Shown here: positions 9,541 through 49,072 of the stretch, one piece after another
How positions within the stretch are numbered: the first letter of the stretch is position 1
Layout of the letters: each line of letters starts with the position of its first letter
IMG/VR virus record: IMGVR_UViG_3300017774_006254
Coordinates: 97,503 to 161,502 of that record
Direction: 5' to 3' (one strand)
Length of the DNA stretch: 64,000 bases
Origin: a virus
Position numbers and translations under genes: made by a program
The notes under the pieces: model-generated
The model's database searches: none
What the model was told of the DNA's origin: nothing
What the model saw: the letters and a program-made list of their open reading frames with translations, nothing else

Positions 9541-9614
9541 GCTCCCGTAGCTCAGTTGGATAGAGCAGTCGCTTCCTAAGCGAAAGGTCCCAGGTTCAAC
9601 TCCTGGTGGGAGCG
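9541..9614 (+). tRNA. tRNA-Arg(CCT)
   Basis: Acceptor GCTCCCG/TGGGAGC, D arm GCTC..GAGC, anticodon loop TTCCTAA, T loop GGTTCAACTCC; no encoded CCA. Confidence 0.93.
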
Positions 9615-21743: not shown

Positions 21744-22109
21744 GGGCGTGAAAGGTGTCGACGGAGTGACTGGAGACCGTGTTGCGTGCAGGGGTTGATC
21801 GGCTGGCCCCTATATCAAGCCGATCATCGTAGATGCGAACGAAAGCAACTACGCTCGCGCCGCGCAAGCAGCCTGAGCCGTTTGGTGAAGTAGGCGGCGG
21901 ACTTCATCGGGCGTCATTTAGCCGAGGCAAGCTTGTTTTGTATCCTCAGGATTCAAGCCCAAGGCTGTTCATCTGAAGATTGGTGGAGGAGTGACCGTCA
22001 CTCCCGACCGGGCCGCACCAGCTGAGAGCGGTACTCTCGAACAGGTGATACGCACGTAGACGCACGGAATTTGGCATTTCGGACCCGGGTTCGACTCCCG
22101 GCACGTCCA
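21744..22109 (+). ncRNA. ssrA: tmRNA
   Basis: Acceptor GGGCGTG/CACGTCC-A with G3.U70, T arm CCGGGTTCGACTCCCGG, tag ORF 21835-21876 ANESNYARAAQAA*. Confidence 0.95.
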
Positions 22110-22110
22110 T

Positions 22111-22140
22111 CGCCACCTGGAAACGGGTGGCGTTTTCTTT
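22111..22140 (+). terminator. Intrinsic terminator
   Basis: CGCCACCTG-GAAA-CGGGTGGCG followed by TTTTCTTT. Confidence 0.85.
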
Positions 22141-35317: not shown

Positions 35318-35350
35318 GAGATTGAAATTCCTTGTTGTTCGCCGCAGCGA

Positions 35351-35423
35351 TGGGACGAGCGGGACTTGAACCCACATGTTGCGGATTAAAAATCCGCTCC
35401 TCTACCAATTGAGGTATCGCCCC
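35351..35423 (-). tRNA. tRNA-Lys(TTT)
   Basis: D arm CCTC..GAGG, anticodon arm GCGGA-TTTTTAA-TCCGC, T loop GGTTCAAGTCC; U1:C72 mismatch. Confidence 0.88.
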
Positions 35424-35444
35424 AGGGCCAGAGGCCCTTCGAGA

Positions 35445-39133: not shown

Positions 39134-40874
39134 GATCCATCTCCTGCACGAAGCACGTAGTTGCAGATGTAGTCGAGTCCTTTATCGGGCCACCCCTCTT
39201 CCTCTTGAGTCGCCTCGTCAGCTGGGCGCTCCTTGTAGTCCACCTGCACGCACGTTTGGACCGGAAGGAGCATCCCCCACTGCACCCCTCTCATCATGCC
39301 GTCTTCGGGCCAGTGATCGCCTCGAAGCTCCAAGCACGACCTGGCGGCATCTCTCGCCTTGTCAGCGGAGTCGTACTCGTAGAAACAACCTTCTTCGTCG
39401 ATGGAGTACCAGGCAGCAGTCTTGCTCTCGTCGGCTGGCTTGAGCCCGCGCTGTTCGAGCTGTGCACGCATGATTCGGTTCTGCGCCATCACGAAGTCCG
39501 CCCCGAGGCGCACAGCCGCGATTTCGTCGAAGAGCCTGTCGAGCGCCTTCAGCCCTTCCAGCTTCTCCGTACAGGTGCGACAAGGACGCGTTCGCATCCG
39601 CTCAACCGTGCACGCTCCGCACTTCACAGCGCTGAGAATGGATGCCTTGGCCTTGTCTATTTCATCGTTGGTCATGATCAATTCCTGGTGAGCTGGGGCC
39701 TGGACTACTGCCTCGAATCTCGACCTTGTTCAGGTACATGCCGAGAACTTCGGACATAGCCTGTTCTTTGTCAGCTGGGAGGAACCACACTTCGGGAGCG
39801 AACCCGCGCCGTTCCAGTTCATCGAAGAGCGGCTTGGGATCTGTCATCGGTTTGAACGCGTCCATGACTTTGCGCGGAGCGGCATCGTCCCACTGGTCGC
39901 GTTCGGAGTTGTAGGCATCGAGGGCATGCTGCCCGCTGGGCTCGGGAGTACAGAGCGTGCAGACCGTCATATCGCGCACTGACTGCCGGTAGAGCATGCG
40001 CATGGCGTTGAAGATGTGCTCGTCTTCCATGTCGGCGATTCGAATCGACGAACCGTCCTTCATCTTCCAGCTAGGTTCCGTCTTCATCTGCGCCACCTTT
40101 CTTCGTGCCTGTGAAATCGGCCCAGCAAGAATCGCAGGCGAACGTCTCTGTCGCAGAGATCTTGCGCTGTGCTCCAGCGACAGAATAGAACTTTCGAGGC
40201 TCATAGAACCGCGCAGTGGCGGCGGCGCGGCAAGTGTAGTTTCGGTAATGGCACGGATGGTCTCCAACCCCGTCCCAGCCACAGCGACAAGCCTTACTCA
40301 TCTTCGCCCTCGTCGTCCTCGTCGTCCTCATCCCGCTCTGGATGCCACGGGCCGCCAAGATCCACTGTCGGGCCATCGGGAGGCGACGGGAGGTACCCGG
40401 CGGAGGTGCCCGAGGCATGCGCACGACCCATCCGGTTCTTCAGGTCTGCGTTCAGGCTGAGGAGCGCCGCTCTTACCACTTCCATCTGAAGCTCAACAAG
40501 CAATTGCTCGTACGTCATGTCGACGGTCAGATAGGCATCGACGATGGGCGACCAGAGCCGGTAGACGGGTTTACCGTCGCGAATTCGGTGATGGATAACG
40601 CTCATGTCGGTTCTTTCGTGTTGGCGGGCACTGCGTACTTCGCTGGCACCACGTACCACGCGGGCCATGGGCAAGAGTGCGGGGGCTGAGGCGGTCTTAT
40701 GAGCAGACCCCGATCACAGAGAGTGGCGACGTTGACGCGGATGTCGTACGCGCGAAGGTCTGCGCGCCAGACAGAGTCGCGCTGCATCGCGCGGCGGTGC
40801 GACTTGTTGAGAAGCACGCGCTCTCGAAGCTTTGCGCGGCGTGTCTTGGGCGGATGGCAGCTTGGCTTGGTCAC
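39130..40874 (-). CDS. Several hypothetical ORFs (39130-39681, 39662-40087, 40294-~40605, 40602-40874)
   Basis: Overlapping or closely spaced ORFs. Confidence 0.55.
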
Positions 40875-43800
40875 AGGACTTTCTCCTCGGTAATTTCGAT
40901 GCGCAGCACGCTGCCATCAGCGCCGCGCTCGCTAACCCAGGAGGTCGGTGTTTCCTCAGTCCATCTTGGAGAAGTCACGCGGTGCCTTGTGACTTGTTGC
41001 TGAGCGGAGTCGATCGTCGAGTGCAGGGTAAGGGGCCCTTCCCCCAGCAAGATGTGCTTCCTCCCTGCTGGTGACAGCTGGTACCTCTTCAGGGTTACAG
41101 CGAACACCAAGGCGGAGACAGGTGGAACGCTCGCGTTTGCTACTGGCTCCCAGTCGCTAAGCCTGATGCGGACGATAGCGGCCTTGCGCGGCCACCAGGC
41201 CGTCCACCATCCAGCGCTTGAATTCGTATCAAGCTCTCGCAGCACAAGCTCCTCGTTCTGGCTGACGTGCTCTGGCGAGTAGATTGGCTGGTGGAGTTCG
41301 ATGATCTGGTTCGGACCTGGCTTGCGCGGGCGAACTCGGCGCTCTGGAGATGGCGATGGCTGAGCGAAGATTTCCCTCAGTGCACCTCGACCAGATCCAG
41401 GCCGTCCGTCCTTCCCGCGGTCCGTAACAACCAAGTCGTAGCTTCTGATCGTGGCCACGCCGTTGGCATTGGGAACGACTGCACGAGCCTCTGCTTCTGT
41501 TGCGAACACGTTGTTGAAGTGCCCATCGACCGTGACGACGAACATCTTTGTCGTATCGCTTGGGAAGCGAGCCACGAACTCGCGAGACTTGATTTCACTG
41601 TCCCCAAAGACGCCCTTGCAGTCCAAGAAGAACTCGAACACGCATTCATCTTCTGGGTTCGGGGATGGTGGTGCCACAGGCGGAACGCCTGAGGGGGTAC
41701 CGCCGTAGTAGCTGACAGCGTTCTTCGGTTCCTCGGTCTCCTTCTTTAGCCACTTGGTGTACGCAGCAAGCGCGATGTCAAAGTCAACGTGTACGCGGCC
41801 CCATCCGATCTGGATGATGTCCAAGCTGTACTCGCCCGATGAAACGAACTCGCAGATCGAGCGCAGGAATTTTGCTGAGTTGTCCTCAAGCACCTGCGCA
41901 CCTGGCTCCGCATCCAAACCGAGCACTAGGCGCTCATGCGTGCAGCGAAGCAGCTCTCGCTGAACCATGTACGCGCCGTCGTGGTAGCCCATGACGACAC
42001 CGCGCGAGCCGTCTGGCATCTTCACGAGCGTCCCAACGGTGAGCACGTGATCACCTCGCTTCACCTTGGGGAACTTCCCATCCATGATCTCAGGCATGAG
42101 GATCGCGGGGACGAGCGCTCGGTTGATCTTCGCTGCGATAGCGTCACCCTGGCGGATGCTGTCCAGCCCATGGCTGAGGTCGTAGGCCATGGTATGAGTG
42201 ACGCGCCGGACCGTGGGAGTGCTTGGGCGCTTGTAGTTCTCTGACATGTAGACCATGTAGACATGCGGTTCGAAGTACGTCGCACCGGTTGCAGGTGCTA
42301 CGAACAGGTCTCCCACACGAGCAGGCTTCTTCAGTGAGGAGCCCTTGATGAACTTGTTGCAGTAGTCACTGCTGACGAGTTGGTCGTAGACGTCCTTGGG
42401 ATCGTCGGCTTTCTCTCTGGGTGCCTGGCGTGCCTGGCTTGCGACGATAGAGACGGCTTCGATGGCTTCGATGAGAGCTTGGTTTTCACTGCCTTCGTCT
42501 TCTTCTGGGTCACCTTCTTCGTCAGACGGCTCGGCAGGTGGCTCAGGACTGGGCTCGGGCGGCACGTCGGTGGTGGGCGCGTTGACGAACTGAAACAGGA
42601 ACGTCTCGCTTCTCGTTGTGATGCGACCGCGCGAGTCGTTGTCCAGGAGCAGTTGCCAGTGTGTGTCCTCGACCGGCTTCGCGATGCCGCTGGCTTTCAG
42701 GTCGTAAAGGTCTCTCAAGACGCCGCCGTGTATGACGCGACCGCGCATGCTGTCCGTGAAGTTGAGAACGCGCTGGCCTTTGACGGCTGGGAACAAGACG
42801 AACGTTCCTGCGGGCCGTGTAGCGTGCCAGTGAATGGACTCGGTCGTGACGAAGTCGTTCTCCTTGTCAGTCCCGACTTTCACGGACATCTCTGGCTGAA
42901 AAGTGCACTCTTTGATGCGGTCAGCGGGGTCGTTCTTGAACATGCCGACGCGCAACAGCTTGGGGCTCGGAGCTGGCTCGGGGTTGGACTCGGGAGTCGC
43001 GCGCGAGAGTTCGTTGAGGCGCGCAAAGTGGTCGGAGGCGTTGTAGGTCGTCTCCGGCACAGCGGTGCCTTCTGGCTTAGCGTCGGGAGCAGGTGCCGGA
43101 ACGCTGACGAACTTGAAGGCCGCGGTTACGTGGCTGTCGAGTTCCAGTAGGCCATGCATGTCCTCGGTCAGACCGATCACCCAGCGCGCCCCGTCGTTCT
43201 TGGCAACGTTGTCTTCTCGCAGGCCTTCCAGGTCGCGAGTGATGGAGCCTGCTCCGACGCGCCCACGCGCATGCTCAGTGAACTGCAAGGTGCACCCATC
43301 GGATGTCAGGCGAATGGCAATGTGCTCAGAAATCGACACGTACTCGATGATCTGGCCCGGTTTGTAGTCGTCTTCTTTGACAAGCTTCTTGTCCTTGAAG
43401 AAGCCGACGCGCAGTTGCTTCGAGGGCTGGTTCTGGACGGCGGTATCTGGTGCGGGCGTGATGGGCACTTGTTTCTCCTTCGAGTGGGCGGCGAGCATGG
43501 TGGTGAGTTCAGAACGGGTGACGCGTAGTTCGTTGACGAGGGCGTCGGCGGCTTCTTGCGGGCTTCCGTGACCCGTTACCGTGATGCCCGTAAGTCGAGG
43601 CCCGTACTTGTCGCGCGTCTTGAACGAGGCGCCCCAGGTGTCGGTGCGGGGGCTGTGAAACACGACGGTTTCCCCGGGCCTCTCTCCGCTATGCCCGCAG
43701 TAGAAGCGGCCGTGCTCCTTCCCCATCTCTTTCCCGAGGAAGAACACGGGGCCTCGCTCCTTGCCCACGAGTCTGTCCAGCGCTTGCTTCTGAGGCGGCG

Positions 43801-45655
43801 CGACGTGGGCGATTCTCGCCGTGGCGATTTCGATCTTGTTGGAGCTGACCACGAGCATGACGAGGCCTTGGTTCAGCAGCTCGAACAGGAACTCTCGTCG
43901 ATCGGGCCAGATGACCTCGTGGATGAAGCCATCGCGACTCATCTTGGTTCCAAAAAGGTGCTCCCACATCGCCGCCGCCTCGGCGCTGACGTCGATCACT
44001 TTGGAGGTGTGACCAGCGGGGAATGCACCGCACCAGAGCGTGTCACCGCGCTCAAAACGCATATTGTCGCGCGTGTAGCGGAAACCGGCGACAGGGGCTT
44101 TTACTGGCGCTTCCTCTTCTGGCCCGTCAACTAACACAAGCTTCTCGAAGTGGTCTTCATGCGCCTCGAACGCTTCGGATGACATGTGGAAAGTCTTGCC
44201 CGGGCGCTCGGTACATCGAACCCAGAATTCTTCGTTATCGTTGATAGGCGGGTGACGCAGGTCTTTGAGATTCACCGTGAAGGTCGTGCCGTCGCAATTC
44301 ACCACGTCAGCTTCAGATGCGTTGACCAGTCTCACGACGTGGCAGAGTTCGGCTCGGAACCCGGTACCAAAGAGCACTGCGTCGCCTGGTTCGAAGGCGA
44401 ATGTTGTGGTTTCTGGGGTAGTTACTGCGCGCACGGTCACTTCGTCGTTGCGCCAGTACCTCGTTCCCCGGTTTGTTTCGACCGTCAGATGGCCCCCTCT
44501 GGCGTCGGTGACCACGCCAGAATTCCCCGATCTTTCCACGGTGTCTCCGACTTTGATCTCTTGGAGGACTGCGGGGGCAGGCGTTGAGGGGAAGTGCGTG
44601 ACGACGGGGACGAACTTCGAGACGCGGGCCATGTCGGATGTGGGCATCACGAAGAAGCCGTCTTGCGGACGCTCAGGACATCGAACCCAGTCGCCCTCGC
44701 GAACGTCAGGGCGCCGCAGGAACTTCGGCTCGATCGCCTTCGTGGTAACGCCGTTCAGGTCTGTGATGTCGACGCTGGAGCCAGCCAGACTCACGCTCTT
44801 CACGACGTAGCGAGTGGCTCCGTCGAGGTCGAGCGTGGTGACAATGTCTCCAGGCTCGAAGTCTGCGCTCGCAGCCTCTTGCTTTGGCGGTGCGACTCGA
44901 ACGTAGTAGATGCGCTGCTCGTGAAGGTCTGCGCTAAACGAGACAGGAGCCTCTCGGGGATAACGGAGATCACGAACCCAGTCGTTGACGCTGAGAGGAG
45001 CGTGCCGAAGGTCTCCGGGGCTTATGTACACCTCGCCACCGTTCACGCTCAATGCGTCCTGGCCAAGCTTTCGAATCACGACAGATTCTTCGTAGGCACG
45101 CGTGACCACAAACTTGGCGGCAACCTCCACCGGCAGAGTGCCTGTCACGATGTCGCCAGTCTTGAACCCGTGCGCATAATCTTCAGGCATCGATTCGACT
45201 GGAAAGCCAGCTCGCTTGTTCCAACAATCCTCACTCTCGATCGTCACGACACCCGGCGAGATTTCAGCCGTCAAATAGACACCGCCACCATGCGGGATTC
45301 CAAGGTGCGCCATGAGGTGCGAAGGAAGGCGATGGAGCCCGTTTTCCGTGACGTGCGATACGCCGATTCCGCGAGCGCCGATCGACGTCTGCTTTCCGTC
45401 GACAATTTCGTTCAGAAAGCCAACAGCCTCATCCCAGGTGCTGGCCTCCCAGGTGGCAGCCGTCAGCTGAGCTGGATCCCCAAGGCCGTCGGCCCGAGCC
45501 CGAGCCTCGGAATAGCGGCTCAGAAAATAGGCCCTCAGCCTTTGCAAACGGCGCATCAGGCGGCGCGTGGCGTAACGTCTCGATTTCATTGGGTATCTCC
45601 GGATTGAGCTGGGTGCCCAGGGTAGGCGCGTACCATATGACACCGCCTGGCCCAT
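40871..45655 (-). CDS. Giant (~1590 aa) modular protein with SH3/KOW-like repeats
   Basis: FxxGDxV..LR.P..WVR module three times; LRVG.FK..FT..RGRV..RDL module twice; Pro-rich linkers. Confidence 0.85.
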   Translation of the reverse strand: MGQAVSYGTRLPWAPSSIRRYPMKSRRYATRRLMRRLQRLRAYFLSRYSEARARADGLGDPAQLTAATWEASTWDEAVGFLNEIVDGKQTSIGARGIGVSHVTENGLHRLPSHLMAHLGIPHGGGVYLTAEISPGVVTIESEDCWNKRAGFPVESMPEDYAHGFKTGDIVTGTLPVEVAAKFVVTRAYEESVVIRKLGQDALSVNGGEVYISPGDLRHAPLSVNDWVRDLRYPREAPVSFSADLHEQRIYYVRVAPPKQEAASADFEPGDIVTTLDLDGATRYVVKSVSLAGSSVDITDLNGVTTKAIEPKFLRRPDVREGDWVRCPERPQDGFFVMPTSDMARVSKFVPVVTHFPSTPAPAVLQEIKVGDTVERSGNSGVVTDARGGHLTVETNRGTRYWRNDEVTVRAVTTPETTTFAFEPGDAVLFGTGFRAELCHVVRLVNASEADVVNCDGTTFTVNLKDLRHPPINDNEEFWVRCTERPGKTFHMSSEAFEAHEDHFEKLVLVDGPEEEAPVKAPVAGFRYTRDNMRFERGDTLWCGAFPAGHTSKVIDVSAEAAAMWEHLFGTKMSRDGFIHEVIWPDRREFLFELLNQGLVMLVVSSNKIEIATARIAHVAPPQKQALDRLVGKERGPVFFLGKEMGKEHGRFYCGHSGERPGETVVFHSPRTDTWGASFKTRDKYGPRLTGITVTGHGSPQEAADALVNELRVTRSELTTMLAAHSKEKQVPITPAPDTAVQNQPSKQLRVGFFKDKKLVKEDDYKPGQIIEYVSISEHIAIRLTSDGCTLQFTEHARGRVGAGSITRDLEGLREDNVAKNDGARWVIGLTEDMHGLLELDSHVTAAFKFVSVPAPAPDAKPEGTAVPETTYNASDHFARLNELSRATPESNPEPAPSPKLLRVGMFKNDPADRIKECTFQPEMSVKVGTDKENDFVTTESIHWHATRPAGTFVLFPAVKGQRVLNFTDSMRGRVIHGGVLRDLYDLKASGIAKPVEDTHWQLLLDNDSRGRITTRSETFLFQFVNAPTTDVPPEPSPEPPAEPSDEEGDPEEDEGSENQALIEAIEAVSIVASQARQAPREKADDPKDVYDQLVSSDYCNKFIKGSSLKKPARVGDLFVAPATGATYFEPHVYMVYMSENYKRPSTPTVRRVTHTMAYDLSHGLDSIRQGDAIAAKINRALVPAILMPEIMDGKFPKVKRGDHVLTVGTLVKMPDGSRGVVMGYHDGAYMVQRELLRCTHERLVLGLDAEPGAQVLEDNSAKFLRSICEFVSSGEYSLDIIQIGWGRVHVDFDIALAAYTKWLKKETEEPKNAVSYYGGTPSGVPPVAPPSPNPEDECVFEFFLDCKGVFGDSEIKSREFVARFPSDTTKMFVVTVDGHFNNVFATEAEARAVVPNANGVATIRSYDLVVTDRGKDGRPGSGRGALREIFAQPSPSPERRVRPRKPGPNQIIELHQPIYSPEHVSQNEELVLRELDTNSSAGWWTAWWPRKAAIVRIRLSDWEPVANASVPPVSALVFAVTLKRYQLSPAGRKHILLGEGPLTLHSTIDSAQQQVTRHRVTSPRWTEETPTSWVSERGADGSVLRIEITEEKVL

Positions 45656-45725: not shown

Positions 45726-46160
45726 ATGGCGCGCCCCAGGACCCCCTCAGTGACCTACTCGGAGCCCAGCTCGGAGGATTACGCGTCCAAAAACGTCGTG
45801 TCGTGCGACGGCTGCGGAAGGGACTGGCCGCGTTCGATGGCGGTCCCGCGCCTGAAGAAGTGCGTCAACTGCGCTCGGGACTGGTGGAGAGCCGCGCAAG
45901 GCGTGCACCGAACAGGCAACGGATCCACTCCAAAATTGCGTCTTCCGAAACCACTTTCGCTTGCACCAAACGGAATGGACGTCGACGCATTCTTGAAGAC
46001 GCGCACTGGCGTTCCAGATCCCATCAAACGTGCGCCGCGAACTCGCGAAGAAAAGCACGATCCGAACGAGTCGATCGACAGCATCGTTTCGCGCATGACG
46101 GCGAGTGCGGTCCTTGAGGAAAATGTCGACGAAGAATTCGTCGACACGGACGCGAGCTGA
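45726..46160 (+). CDS. Zn-finger hypothetical protein immediately upstream of the hairpin array
   Basis: CDGCG...CVNCA; divergent from the giant ORF. Confidence 0.65.
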   Translation: MARPRTPSVTYSEPSSEDYASKNVVSCDGCGRDWPRSMAVPRLKKCVNCARDWWRAAQGVHRTGNGSTPKLRLPKPLSLAPNGMDVDAFLKTRTGVPDPIKRAPRTREEKHDPNESIDSIVSRMTASAVLEENVDEEFVDTDAS

Positions 46161-47100
46161 GCGGCACGATACCAGGCGTGCCTCGATTCGAAGCATCGAG
46201 GAGCTTTTGCGGCGCTGCTCCGGTCTCGTCTTCTGGGTGCCGAGATACCATTGCCGTCGCAGTCGGGTCTCGATTCGAAGCATCGAGAAGCTTTAGACCG
46301 GCGGTCTGTTGTCTCGTCTTAGGCGCCGAGAAGCTTTGGAGGCCAGATGAGATGCTGTCTCGACTCGTGTCGAGCTACCGCTGTGAATCGCTGGGTCTCA
46401 GCTTCGGGCGCCGAGAGGCCTGTGCGCGGAGGTTCTGATGTTGGTCTCTTCGTCTCGTCTTGGCGCCGAGATGCCGCTGAACAGTGGGCGCGGGTCTCGA
46501 CTTGAGCGTCGAGGGGCTCTTGTGAACGTCGGTGGGAGTTTGGGTCTCAGCTCAGTGCTGAGCTACTTTTTCCGAGTCGCGATGGTCTCGTCTTTGGGTG
46601 CCGAGCAACCTCTACTGAGCGGCACGCGTGTGAGCGCGGGTGCACGTGTCTCGACTCGAAGCGTCGAGGGGCTCTTATACTACTGCGCGGAGTGGTCTCG
46701 ACTCAGTTTCGAGGTGCTGAGGGTCTCGACTTGGCGCCGAGAAGCCTTGGTGAGGTGCCGAGATCGTAGACGCCTACGCGTCTTGGCTAAGTGCCAAGCT
46801 ACTCCTGTTCAACATTTCACTTCTCTCTGGTCTCGTCTTTGGGCGTCGAGAAGCCGTTGGCGCTTGCGAGTGCCCATGCTCGCGGGGTTTCAATTCGAAG
46901 CGTTGAGAAGCTTTGGCGTAGTTCTTCGCATCCACGAGGATTGGGTCTCGGCTGGGCGTCGAGAAGTCTTTGGCAAAGGCTAGCTGCCTCAGTTCGAGGT
47001 GCTGAGGAACCGTGTCTCGGACTCATGTCTGACGTCTCGTCTTCGGGTGCCGAGTAACCTCTACCGAGCGGACTCTGTCGCGTCTCGACATCGTGTCGAG

Positions 47101-47319
47101 CTACTCCAACCCGTTCCACTTGTCTCGGCTGAGCGCCGAGCGGCCCTTGTCTTCGAGTTCCAACTCGTCCTCCGCATCGTGCATCACTGACATGAAATGC
47201 TCCGAGGTGTTGGTGTCGATACCCTTTCTCAGAGCCTCTTGAACGCGCGAAGCGTACGCGGGCGTACCTAGGCGCTCTCGCACGCGCGCTTGGAATTCTT
47301 CGCTGGTCTTGTCGATCAT
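47101..47319 (-). CDS. Small ORF embedded between duplicated array units
   Basis: 72 aa; flanked by 31-nt direct repeats 47110-47140 and 47329-47359. Confidence 0.5.
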   Translation of the reverse strand: MIDKTSEEFQARVRERLGTPAYASRVQEALRKGIDTNTSEHFMSVMHDAEDELELEDKGRSALSRDKWNGLE

Positions 47320-47907
47320 GGCGCCACGCCCGTTCCATTTGTCTCGGCTGAGCGCCGAGGTGCCTTTGTAAGGTGGACTTTCAGCCTCAGGTCGAAGGTG
47401 CTGAGGAACCGTTCGCTCTGTCTCGACTTGGGTGTCGAGCTACTTCTTATTGCTTACCAACTTGTCTCGACTGGGCGTCGAACTGCCGTTGCGCGTCTCC
47501 ACATCGTCTTGACTCGGTGCCAAGCAACACTCGGTTTCTTCATGAGGCTCGCCTGGGCGTCGAGCTGCTTTCATCCCGGAGGTTCCATGTCTCGGCATCG
47601 TGCCGAGCTACTTCTAAGAGTGATCGAACGTCCAAGCAGTCCGTTCCACTTGTCTCGGATAAGCCCCGAGCGACCGCAAGCCATCCCAGCGAGTCTCAGC
47701 TTCGAGGCGCTGAGCTGCCTTGGGCGGATGCAACTTGCCTCGCTTGGTCAGCGAGTAGAAGCCGTTGTGAACCGGGTCGTCAACGATGTCTCGGCTGAGC
47801 GCCGAGCGGCAGTAGCCTATGTCCTTCATGTCTCAGTTGGGTACCGAGTAACCGTTGAGACTCTGCCTCGGCTTTTGGTGCTGAGGAACCTATGCGACAC
47901 TGCCCTC

Positions 47908-48111
47908 GTGGCAACGCCAAAGTCGGTCCTCGTGTTTCAGAAGCTTGTTGACGGTGAGTACCAAATTGTTGCCACCTTTGGCGAGGTGGACACCGAGCTT
48001 GGCATCGCCTGGATGAGAGCGCGCAGGATGGGCGAGGACTACCACCGTGCTCAAGTGTGGAGAGGTGACGTTCTTACTTCCATCCCGATCGATTTCCTGA
48101 GCGGGAGTTGA
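47908..48111 (+). CDS. Small ORF embedded in the array
   Basis: GTG-start 67-aa ORF filling the repeat-free gap. Confidence 0.5.
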   Translation: MATPKSVLVFQKLVDGEYQIVATFGEVDTELGIAWMRARRMGEDYHRAQVWRGDVLTSIPIDFLSGS

Positions 48112-48556
48112 CACTGTCTCGGGAACTCCGAGCTGGCTCGACATGGGCATGTCTCAGTTCGCGAAGGCACTGAGAGACCGTAGAACTTGCACATTCGCCT
48201 CGCCTCTGTGACGAGGAACCGCTGGCTTCTCGATCGTGCTTTGACCAGCACGCGTCGCACCAGAGTCGCGCTTCGGGCGTCGAACCTGTATCGCAACCAA
48301 AATCATACGGAAAAACCTTCAAGCACTTCGGACACCGGAATAGCTCGTACCGGTCGAGCACTCTGGTCAGATGGCGCCTTCGCGGCAGGCGGAACTTTTG
48401 TGAACTAAAAGAACCGTCCTGATTTGGAAAGCAGATCCGTACTTGCATTTCATCTCTTCGGTGCGCGGGTGACATTGCCTCGCTCGACAGCGAGTGGTTC
48501 ATAGGCGTAGGCACGTGGTCTCGATTAGAAGGCATCGAGAAGCCGTCGGCAGTAAT

Positions 48557-48655
48557 CGGAGGGTACGAGGGTTGAACTCGCACACGGTTTTCACGTGTCC
48601 AGAGCCTCGCGCCCATGCGCTGCGCTCACGACCGTTACCATTCCGGCAACCCTCC
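48557..48655 (-). ncRNA. tRNA-Ser-like RNA with aberrant extended anticodon arm
   Basis: Acceptor GGAGGGT/ACCCTCC-G, D arm CCG-GAATGGTAA-CGG, long variable arm CACG..CGTG, T arm GCGAG-TTCAACC-CTCGT. Confidence 0.75.
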
Positions 48656-48664
48656 ATGTCATCC

Positions 48665-49072
48665 TTAGCGGGAAGTCCTTCGAGCTGACGCTCCGTGAAA
48701 CAGAAATCTCCTAGCCAACGGGACGCCGGGAGTAATGCGGCCCCAGTTCAACAAAGCGATTACTCGCTTCTCTGTGACGTGCAGTCTCCCAGTCCCGAAG
48801 CGAATTCCCTGCTGGTGCATCTGAGCTTCGTGGCGCTTCACGAAGGCCAGCGACCGGCGAGCTTTGCTCCACATCCTCGGCGTCCAGTTCTGGGCTCGGG
48901 TGCTCTTCATCCTCGCAAGTAGGGGTAGCTCTGCGCGGATGTGATCGAACGAAGCGTGCTTGGACAAAGCAGACGCATGCCACCGGCGAAGCTGGGACGC
49001 GGTCATGTTGATGGTTCTGTTGAACTCACCATACAGCTGAAGATCAAGCTCGGGACGCCTCGATGTTCTCAT
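48665..49072 (-). CDS. DUF3140-like basic protein with RTSR termini
   Basis: EFNRTINMTASQLRRW...ALLNWG; starts MRTSRR, ends RRTSR. Confidence 0.6.
   Translation of the reverse strand: MRTSRRPELDLQLYGEFNRTINMTASQLRRWHASALSKHASFDHIRAELPLLARMKSTRAQNWTPRMWSKARRSLAFVKRHEAQMHQQGIRFGTGRLHVTEKRVIALLNWGRITPGVPLARRFLFHGASARRTSR

What the first reader, a model, noticed from the sequence alone, without database searches (positions are those of the whole stretch)
46180..48288. Cas-less array of ~38 covarying hairpins with short spacers: candidate new guide, decoy-RNA or recombination array
Seen: about 38 units of ~24-27 nt, consensus G[TC]CTCR..loop..YGAG-NN-RCY, mostly at 38-50 nt period (some up to ~63). 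Spacers are ~15-35 nt and largely unique. Sequence drifts but pairing is kept (CTCG/CGAG in most; CTCA/TGAG at 46544, 46986, 47383, 47693, 48151; CTTG/CAAG at 46780, 47506; TTCAA/TTGAG at 46887). The 5' GT can pair with the 3' RC across a constant 2-nt bulge. Several loops contain UUCG or CGAAG. At least five recurring sub-types are interleaved. No long ORF here looks real, although the rest of the window is gene-dense. Inference: selection acts on an RNA or ssDNA structure recognised by one protein or nuclease. Options are a CRISPR/TIGR-like guide array, an anti-defence decoy array (Racr-like), or recombination sites. No cas, Tas/Nop or RT gene is visible in the window; the 45726-46160 Zn-finger gene abuts the array.
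Basis: partly seen in the sequence, partly recalled or inferred. Interest (0 to 1): 0.92.

Follow-up and report, generated by a model that had tools for sequence, protein, structure and literature searches.

The report
Phage Cas12m guide array, drifted repeats
This 2.4-kb run of about 39 small RNA hairpins is a compact CRISPR guide array whose repeats have drifted in sequence; it belongs to a Cas12m gene 67 kb away in the same 161-kb phage genome, so it is a known kind of system in an unusual, easily missed form, and its targets are unknown.

Summary
The hairpin array is real: a covariance model finds 39 units at 46180-48547, all on the minus strand, with a median period of 44 nt.

It is not Cas-less. 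The window is part of a 161.5-kb phage genome with terminal repeats. That genome encodes one Cas12m (type V-M effector; E 4e-81 to a solved Cas12m), 67 kb away. A small array of the same units follows that gene.

Each unit has a 3-bp pseudoknot strand, a 2-nt linker, a 6-bp stem and a 3' AC. This matches the crRNA scaffold seen in Cas12m cryo-EM structures. Both helices covary strongly, also in 84 units from other loci. The model built from this array also hits canonical 36-nt V-M repeats beside distant cas12m genes.

Two related phages carry the array at the same position.

Unusual features:
- Unit identity is only about 0.65, against 0.96-1.0 in canonical arrays.
- Repeats are about 27-30 nt and about half the spacers are 12-16 nt.
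- The array lies far from the effector.
- Two small genes are embedded in it.
- The genome has no cas1, cas2 or cas4.

No target was found. This scan has already noted drifted Cas12m arrays in other phages.

The parts
46180..48547 (-). Whole array: 39 repeat units in four blocks, each unit followed by a spacer. Read on the minus strand, a unit is: A-rich triplet, 3-nt pseudoknot strand (GGY or AGY), 2-nt linker, 6-bp stem with a 5-10-nt loop, then AC.
   Evidence: R1 hits; unit and spacer table; covariation.
46180..47148 (-). Block D: 21 units, the longest uninterrupted run. It ends about 525 nt upstream of the start of the 1594-aa gene.
47341..47893 (-). Block C: 13 units.
48116..48223 (-). 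Block B: 3 units. The third (48116-48140) is weak, at 10.8 bits.
48477..48547 (-). Block A: the first 2 units, next to the leader.
   Evidence: The first three modules are collinear with those of L008 and L009.
48548..48664 (-). Leader of about 115 nt between the stop of the upstream DUF3140-like gene and the first unit. It is a candidate promoter or leader of the pre-crRNA (inferred).
   Evidence: The aligned stretch holding it (178 nt, with the first unit) shows 91% mean column identity across three phages. Four-fold degenerate sites in flanking genes are 0.68-0.77 identical. No Rfam match; fold z-score -1.28.
47101..47319 (-). Embedded 72-aa gene in the same direction as the array. Its last 14 codons read through a unit and its spacer. 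Function unknown.
   Evidence: Conserved in L009. By my count 8 of about 10 substitutions in the unique part are synonymous. Absent in L008. No Pfam or PHROG match.
47911..48111 (+). Embedded 66-aa gene, antisense to the array. It starts with GTG here and ATG in L009. Function unknown.
   Evidence: The plus-strand frame is conserved in L009; the minus-strand frame is not. Absent in L008. No family match.
48224..48476 (.). Insertion of about 240 nt inside the second spacer, present only in this phage. Content unknown.
   Evidence: L008 and L009 have a 15-nt spacer at this place.
45726..46160 (+). Zn-ribbon gene (two CxxC motifs) next to the end of the array, on the opposite strand. Not shown to belong to the system.
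   Evidence: 95% identical protein in L009. L008 has an endonuclease VII gene at this place.
40871..45655 (-). 1594-aa gene of unknown family downstream of the array on the same strand. It serves as the synteny anchor.
   Evidence: Homologues in the two related phages are each preceded by the array.

Best explanation
The region is a type V-M CRISPR-type guide array serving the phage's own Cas12m, which lies outside the window at genome 74703-76487 on the plus strand.

Inferred mechanism:
- The minus strand is transcribed from the conserved leader as a pre-crRNA.
- Each unit folds into the pseudoknotted handle that Cas12m grips.
- Cas12m cuts the transcript into crRNAs of roughly 40-45 nt, each a 24-30-nt handle followed by a 3' guide, most often of 12-16 nt.
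- The complexes bind PAM-flanked complementary DNA and block its transcription or replication. Characterised Cas12m proteins, including D-E-D types, bind without cutting.
- The phage has no cas1, cas2 or cas4, so the guide set is inherited. It changes by drift, deletion, insertion and recombination between units. The repeats may drift as long as the fold is kept.

Shown: unit architecture, covariation, strand, link to cas12m, synteny, and absence of adaptation genes.

Inferred: transcription, processing, guide function and the silencing outcome. Targets are unknown.
For: 1. Effector. L004:6614-8488 matches a solved Cas12m (23vw_A) at E 3.9e-81 over its full length, and Cas12m2 at E 4.5e-32. 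D305, E467, D555 and four Zn cysteines are invariant in 27 homologues. It is the only PF07282 gene in the genome.
2. Link to the array. R1 was built only from the window array. It hits units right after cas12m in this genome, in relatives with 89% and 86% identical Cas12m, and in a phage contig with 53% identity. It also hits arrays after cas12m homologues of 32-46% identity. These include canonical arrays of identical 36-nt repeats.
3. Fold. The 3-bp pseudoknot, 2-nt linker, 6-bp stem and unpaired 3' AC match the published crRNA scaffolds. Those are PMC10442227 section 7 and bioRxiv 10.64898/2026.03.26.714355. In the window units the pseudoknot pair is CG 14, UA 11, UG 2. In 84 independent units it is CG 53, TA 25, with 0 of 2000 shuffles as good.
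4. Strand. G-U pairs outnumber A-C mismatches, 9 against at most 2 in the window and 28 against 7 elsewhere. The orientation matches the flanking genes and the arrays beside cas12m.
5. Conservation. Arrays sit at the same position in L008 (37 units) and L009 (25 units). Of 33 window spacers, 10 are shared with L008, several without any change. Four-fold sites are only 0.51-0.77 identical.
6. Generality. In 75 IMG/VR loci with Cas12m relatives, a structure-only scan finds 574 units on the cas12m strand and 53 on the other. 43 loci have a cluster just downstream of the gene. One complete 113-kb phage has 34 units directly after cas12m.
7. No Cas1, Cas2 or Cas4, as is usual for V-M (PMC10691335).
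Against: - No protospacer was found in the phage's own genome or in about 550 kb of related loci.
- Three long spacers have no match in IMG/VR. Five candidate MAG genomes gave only chance-level hits.
- About half the spacers are 12-16 nt, shorter than the 17-bp heteroduplex reported as optimal. Four are 10 nt or less and cannot guide.
- A module-level comparison gives 85% identity for units and 72% for spacers, so spacers are not cleanly better conserved than repeats.
- The array lies 67 kb from cas12m and on the other genome strand, unlike described V-M loci.
Confidence: 0.8

Rival explanations
1. A relic array. It descends from a V-M CRISPR array but no longer supplies working guides. Repeats and spacers are decaying and the phage keeps it by inertia.
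For: Low unit identity of about 0.65. Heterogeneous spacer lengths, including 1-10 nt. Insertions of genes and a 240-nt segment. No targets found.
Against: Both helices are kept by compensatory changes in 98% of cells, which needs continuing selection on the fold. The array is retained at the same place in three phages whose four-fold sites have diverged to 0.5-0.77 identity. The stretch holding the leader shows 91% mean column identity.
Confidence: 0.08
2. A sponge or regulator rather than a guide set. The handles bind Cas12m, the phage's own or a host or plasmid copy. They titrate it or control neighbouring genes, as described for crRNA-like RNAs and RNA anti-CRISPRs. The spacers would have no external targets.
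For: Short spacers and no detectable targets. Some units lie directly before start codons of embedded reading frames. Other agents of this scan proposed regulatory solo repeats near cas12m in other phages (not tested here).
Against: Spacers are almost all different from each other. Their length clusters at 12-16 nt. Some are kept unchanged between phages while the neighbouring repeat differs. No solo units occur elsewhere in this genome at E 0.01 or better. A sponge would not need 39 different spacers.
Confidence: 0.08
3. Recombination or cassette-capture sites. The hairpins would be integron-like sites, recognised as single-stranded DNA, where small genes are inserted and excised.
For: Two small genes and one 240-nt segment are present or absent between units in different phages. 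One gene is flanked by two copies of the same unit and spacer.
Against: The genome was not searched for an integrase or HUH gene, so neither is shown near the array or elsewhere. IS110-type and reverse-transcriptase families were searched and are absent from the genome. The units are homologous to V-M CRISPR repeats and follow cas12m in many phages. Homologous recombination between similar repeats explains the insertions and deletions.
Confidence: 0.03
4. A repetitive protein-coding region.
For: Long open frames exist on both strands of this GC-rich DNA.
Against: Periods of 37-63 nt are not multiples of three. No frame stays open across the array. Variation follows base pairing, not codons.
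Confidence: 0.01

Closest known systems
Type V-M CRISPR-Cas12m arrays (MmCas12m2, GoCas12m, PmCas12m; PMC10442227, PMC11013384, bioRxiv 10.64898/2026.03.26.714355)
   Same: Effector family. No tracrRNA-type partner is needed. The crRNA handle has a pseudoknot, a stem and a 3' AC directly before the guide. No cas1, cas2 or cas4. The repeat sequence is homologous to canonical 36-nt V-M repeats.
   Different: Canonical arrays have near-identical 36-nt repeats, a period of about 72-73 nt, and lie directly downstream of cas12m. Here units are about 27-30 nt and only about 0.65 identical, the median period is 44 nt, about half the spacers are 12-16 nt, and the array lies 67 kb from the gene with genes embedded in it.
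MV-1 myxophage V-M locus (bioRxiv 10.64898/2026.09.14.751636)
   Same: A phage-borne Cas12m of about 600 aa with an intact D-E-D triad. Two of the three catalytic positions carry the same numbers as here (D305, D555). It has an adjacent array, no adaptation genes and no protospacers found.
   Different: That report describes one consensus repeat with eight spacers next to the gene. No large remote array or drifted repeats are mentioned. I could not compare the sequences, so kinship with this phage is not established.
Compact adaptation-less type V systems of large phages (Cas-phi/Cas12j, Cas-lambda), named from my own knowledge and from titles seen
   Same: A small single effector plus an array in a large phage genome, with no Cas1-Cas2. 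They are presumed to be used against hosts or competing elements.
   Different: Different Cas12 subtypes, with regular repeats and active nucleases. Characterised Cas12m binds without cutting.
Divergent CRISPR-like and omega-RNA arrays near Cas12f and V-U groups (PMC10691335)
   Same: Irregular arrays without adaptation genes, thought to grow by duplication of guide-RNA segments.
   Different: Those have long repeats (over 60 bp in the cited case) and other effectors. Here the repeat is cut down to the minimal handle.
   Same: Short structured repeats with short spacers in phage genomes.
   Different: No Nop-domain Tas gene in the genome. Racr units mimic a host system's repeats, whereas this phage encodes the matching effector itself.

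Membership tests
Type V-M CRISPR-Cas12m system | A Cas12m effector encoded in the same genome | tested here: met
   L004:6614-8488 matches 23vw_A at E 3.9e-81 over its full length and Cas12m2 at E 4.5e-32. It is the only PF07282 gene in the genome.
Type V-M CRISPR-Cas12m system | The repeat folds into the Cas12m handle: a 5' strand paired to the first loop bases, a 2-nt linker, a stem of about 6 bp, and two unpaired 3' bases ending in C before the guide | tested here: met
   Covariation in 27 window units and in 84 independent units. Compared with the structures described in PMC10442227 and 10.64898/2026.03.26.714355.
Type V-M CRISPR-Cas12m system | Repeat sequence related to repeats of arrays next to cas12m genes | tested here: met
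   R1 hits arrays after cas12m in L004-L007, L010-L012, L014 and L021.
Type V-M CRISPR-Cas12m system | Array directly downstream of cas12m on the same strand | tested here: not met
   This array is 67 kb away on the other genome strand. A 3-6-unit mini-array of the same units does occupy the canonical place.
Type V-M CRISPR-Cas12m system | No cas1, cas2 or cas4 (usual for V-M) | tested here: met
   PMC10691335.
CRISPR array in the strict sense | Near-identical direct repeats of constant length, regularly spaced | tested here: not met
   Mean unit identity is about 0.65, against 0.96-1.0 in most canonical V-M arrays. Tandem Repeats Finder sees no array.
CRISPR array in the strict sense | Spacers match foreign DNA next to a PAM | tested here: inconclusive
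   No matches beyond chance. The host is unknown and spacers are too short for searches of large databases.
CRISPR array in the strict sense | Transcribed and processed into crRNAs | not testable with these tools
TIGR-Tas | A Nop-domain Tas protein encoded with the array | tested here: not met
   No PF01798 match in the 161.5-kb genome.
IS110 bridge-RNA or retron-type systems | An IS110 recombinase or a reverse transcriptase in the genome | tested here: not met
   No PF01548 or PF00078 match.

The most novel reading that the evidence does not exclude
The array is a hard-wired, inherited program of about 35 guides. With it the phage uses a DNA-binding Cas12m as a multiplex repressor of host genes, or of competing elements. 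It evolves without any adaptation machinery, by drift and recombination. Repeats are stripped to the minimal protein-binding fold and spacers are cut down to about the length the enzyme uses. Such arrays escape standard CRISPR finders, so phage-encoded guide repertoires would be much larger than catalogued.
Probability: 0.3. Interest if true: 0.75.

Novelty: new variant of a known kind. Interest (0 to 1): 0.45.

Why it matters
- Detection. A CRISPR array can lose repeat identity yet keep its function-defining RNA fold, which makes it invisible to repeat-based finders. Phage and plasmid V-M systems may therefore carry far more guides than reported; the one published phage case lists eight spacers.
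- Minimal handle. The 39 diverged units, plus more than 80 in relatives, form a natural mutagenesis series. It defines the minimal Cas12m handle (pseudoknot, 2-nt linker, stem, AC) and may help in designing compact multiplex arrays for Cas12m-based repression or base editing.
- Biology. An inherited set of about 35 short guides in a virus with no adaptation genes raises the question of what a phage silences with them.

Tried and rejected
- Tandem Repeats Finder sees no array.
- Rfam and tRNA scans find nothing in the region.
- No similar DNA in GenBank phages.
- The 1594-aa neighbour has no relatives in IMG/VR. Relatives were reached through protein look-ups instead.
- Pfam and PHROG give nothing for the neighbours or the embedded reading frames, apart from a sub-threshold DUF3140 match (23.1 bits against a 25-bit cut-off) for the upstream gene at 48665-49072.
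- Self-targeting: only two 1-mismatch 14-mer hits, against about 1.7 expected.
- Cross-targeting among all loci held: 2 hits, against 1.1 expected.
- Three long or conserved spacers have no exact match in IMG/VR.
- BLAST of the array against five MAG genomes that carry Cas12m relatives gave only chance-level hits, E 0.17 or worse.
- Host identification failed.
- A test of whether spacers are better conserved than repeats was inconclusive.
- Paralogous spacers within an array are rare, one pair per array.
- Promoter and terminator scans were uninformative.
- The leader's cloverleaf-like fold is not significant.
- The whole contigs of the two closest relatives could not be scanned.

Full report
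**What is there.**
The window is the last 64 kb of a 161.5-kb IMG/VR virus record with direct terminal repeats. A strict motif search puts 27 plus-strand hairpins inside 46223-48539. I aligned 27 clean units on the minus strand (A1) and built a covariance model, R1. R1 finds 38-39 units from 46180 to 48547, all on the minus strand, and nothing comparable elsewhere in the window.

In the whole genome the only other hits are three units at 77137-77288. The median period is 44 nt. The units form four blocks of 2, 3, 13 and 21, separated by stretches of 253, 222 and 192 nt.

**The fold.**
Read on the minus strand, a unit has these parts in order:
- an A-rich triplet
- a 3-nt strand (GGY or AGY)
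- two variable bases
- a 6-bp stem, mostly CTCGNN paired with NNCGAG
- a 5-10-nt loop
- AC

The stem is paired in 98.8% of cells, and four of its six pairs change on both sides. The 3-nt strand pairs with the first three loop bases. The key pair is C-G 14 times, U-A 11 times and U-G twice, and is never unpaired; 0 of 500 shuffles reach the observed score.

I then tested 84 units from other loci, none of which was used to build the model. There the same pseudoknot pair is C-G 53 and T-A 25, with 0 of 2000 shuffles as good. The third pair is G-C 50 and A-T 25.

G-U pairs outnumber A-C mismatches, 9 to at most 2 in the window and 28 to 7 elsewhere. So the RNA is read from the minus strand, the strand of the flanking genes.

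**The partner.**
L004:6614-8488 is 594 aa from the likely start. It matches a solved Cas12m (23vw_A) at E 3.9e-81 over its full length, and Cas12m2 at E 4.5e-32. The D-E-D triad and four Zn cysteines are invariant in 27 homologues.

It is the only TnpB/Cas12-family gene in the genome. The genome has no Cas1, Cas2, Cas4, Nop-domain protein, IS110 recombinase or reverse transcriptase.

Published structures describe the Cas12m crRNA handle as follows:
- a 5' strand paired to loop bases
- a 2-nt linker with a flipped base
- a stem of about 6 bp
- a 3' A and C read by the protein, directly before a guide that forms a 17-bp heteroduplex

These descriptions come from PMC10442227 and bioRxiv 10.64898/2026.03.26.714355. 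This is the architecture that the covariation supports here.

**Link between units and cas12m.**
R1 was built only from the remote array. It hits units directly after cas12m in all of these:
- this genome
- two relatives with 89% and 86% identical Cas12m
- a phage contig with 53% identity
- contigs with 32-46% identity, including canonical arrays of identical 36-nt repeats at a period of 71-79 nt

The window units correspond to about the 3' 27-31 nt of such repeats.

In 75 IMG/VR loci with Cas12m relatives, a scan using structure alone finds 574 units on the cas12m strand and 53 on the other strand. 43 loci have a cluster just after the gene. Most are regular (period 72-73 nt, unit identity 0.96-1.0); a few are compact and drifted. 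One complete 113-kb phage has 34 units right after cas12m.

**Conservation.**
The two close relatives carry arrays at the same position, upstream of the homologue of the 1594-aa gene. They have 37 and 25 units. The stretch holding the roughly 115-nt leader shows 91% mean column identity, while four-fold sites in nearby genes are 0.68-0.77 identical.

Ten of 33 window spacers recur in L008, several without any change and sometimes behind a different repeat subtype. The order of modules differs in places. However, a module-level comparison gives 85% identity for units and 72% for spacers. I therefore do not claim that spacers are the better-conserved part.

**What is unusual.**
- Mean unit identity is about 0.65.
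- Repeats are reduced to about 27-30 nt.
- About half the spacers are 12-16 nt, a fifth are 17-24 nt, a sixth are 28-36 nt, and four are 10 nt or less.
- The array lies 67 kb from its effector, on the other strand.
- Two small genes are embedded. One, of 72 aa, runs in the array direction and differs from its L009 copy mostly by synonymous changes. The other, of 66 aa, is antisense. Both are present in L009 and absent in L008.

**Mechanism (inferred).**
- The minus strand is transcribed from the leader.
- Cas12m binds each handle and cuts the transcript. A published orthologue cuts near the start of the repeat and at guide position 17-18. With so little RNA between one AC and the next handle, a single cut could make both ends.
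- The complexes bind PAM-flanked DNA and block it. All characterised Cas12m proteins, D-E-D types included, bind without cutting (PMC11013384).
- A 14-nt guide plus a PAM is still expected to be unique in a 10-Mb genome (my estimate).

**Targets.**
None were found. I checked the phage itself, 550 kb of related loci, IMG/VR for three long spacers and five MAG genomes. The host is unknown, and no expression data could be obtained.

**What is known already.**
- V-M systems are known on plasmids and in some prophages (PMC11656645).
- A September 2026 preprint reports a myxophage Cas12m with an adjacent eight-spacer array, no adaptation genes and no targets.
- Other agents of this scan have described drifted Cas12m arrays in other phages.

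This is therefore a variant of a known system, not a new class. The new points are the degree of repeat drift with the fold retained, the compaction, the size, the remote position and the embedded genes.

Noticed in passing
window 48548-48664 (-): The leader before the first unit lies in a stretch with 91% mean column identity across three phages. It can be drawn as a cloverleaf with a T-arm-like hairpin and a 7-bp closing stem. The fold is not significant (z -1.28), and neither Rfam nor ARAGORN recognises it.
   Followed up: partly
window 47101-47319 (-) and 47911-48111 (+): Two small conserved protein genes sit inside the array, one in each orientation. They have no known family. Both are present in relative L009 and absent in relative L008. 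The first is flanked by two copies of the same unit and spacer.
   Followed up: partly
window 48224-48476: A segment of about 240 nt with lower GC is inserted in the second spacer in this phage only. Its content is unknown.
   Followed up: no
window 45726-46160 (+); L008 9213-9866 (-): The Zn-ribbon gene at the end of the array is 95% conserved in one relative. In the other relative an endonuclease VII (PF02945) gene takes its place, which suggests a slot used by homing-type genes.
   Followed up: partly
window 21744-22112, 9541-9614, 35349-35424: The phage encodes a tmRNA (112 bits; tag ANESNYARAAQAA), a tRNA-Arg(CCT) and a tRNA-Lys(TTT).
   Followed up: no
L048 and L096 (IMGVR_UViG_3300032770_000005, 152857 bp): One viral contig carries two different Cas12m genes about 48 kb apart, 43% and 39% identical to the query.
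   Followed up: no
L062 contig (G008) 106192-108510: A complete 113-kb phage with terminal repeats has at least 34 units directly after its cas12m. The median period is 54 nt and unit identity is 0.87. This form lies between canonical arrays and the window array.
   Followed up: partly
L007 13090-13170: The second array of the phage with 53% identical Cas12m is followed by a tRNA-like sequence with a T-arm and an acceptor end.
   Followed up: no
L010 3860-4660 (-): A contig binned as Polyangiales has a drifted array after cas12m and also encodes an anti-Pycsar Apyc1-like protein nearby. The contig is probably phage DNA.
   Followed up: no
L005 17009-20131; L006 16955-20077: In both close relatives, a 1040-aa helicase gene near cas12m carries Hint/homing-endonuclease domains, which suggests an intein.
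   Followed up: no
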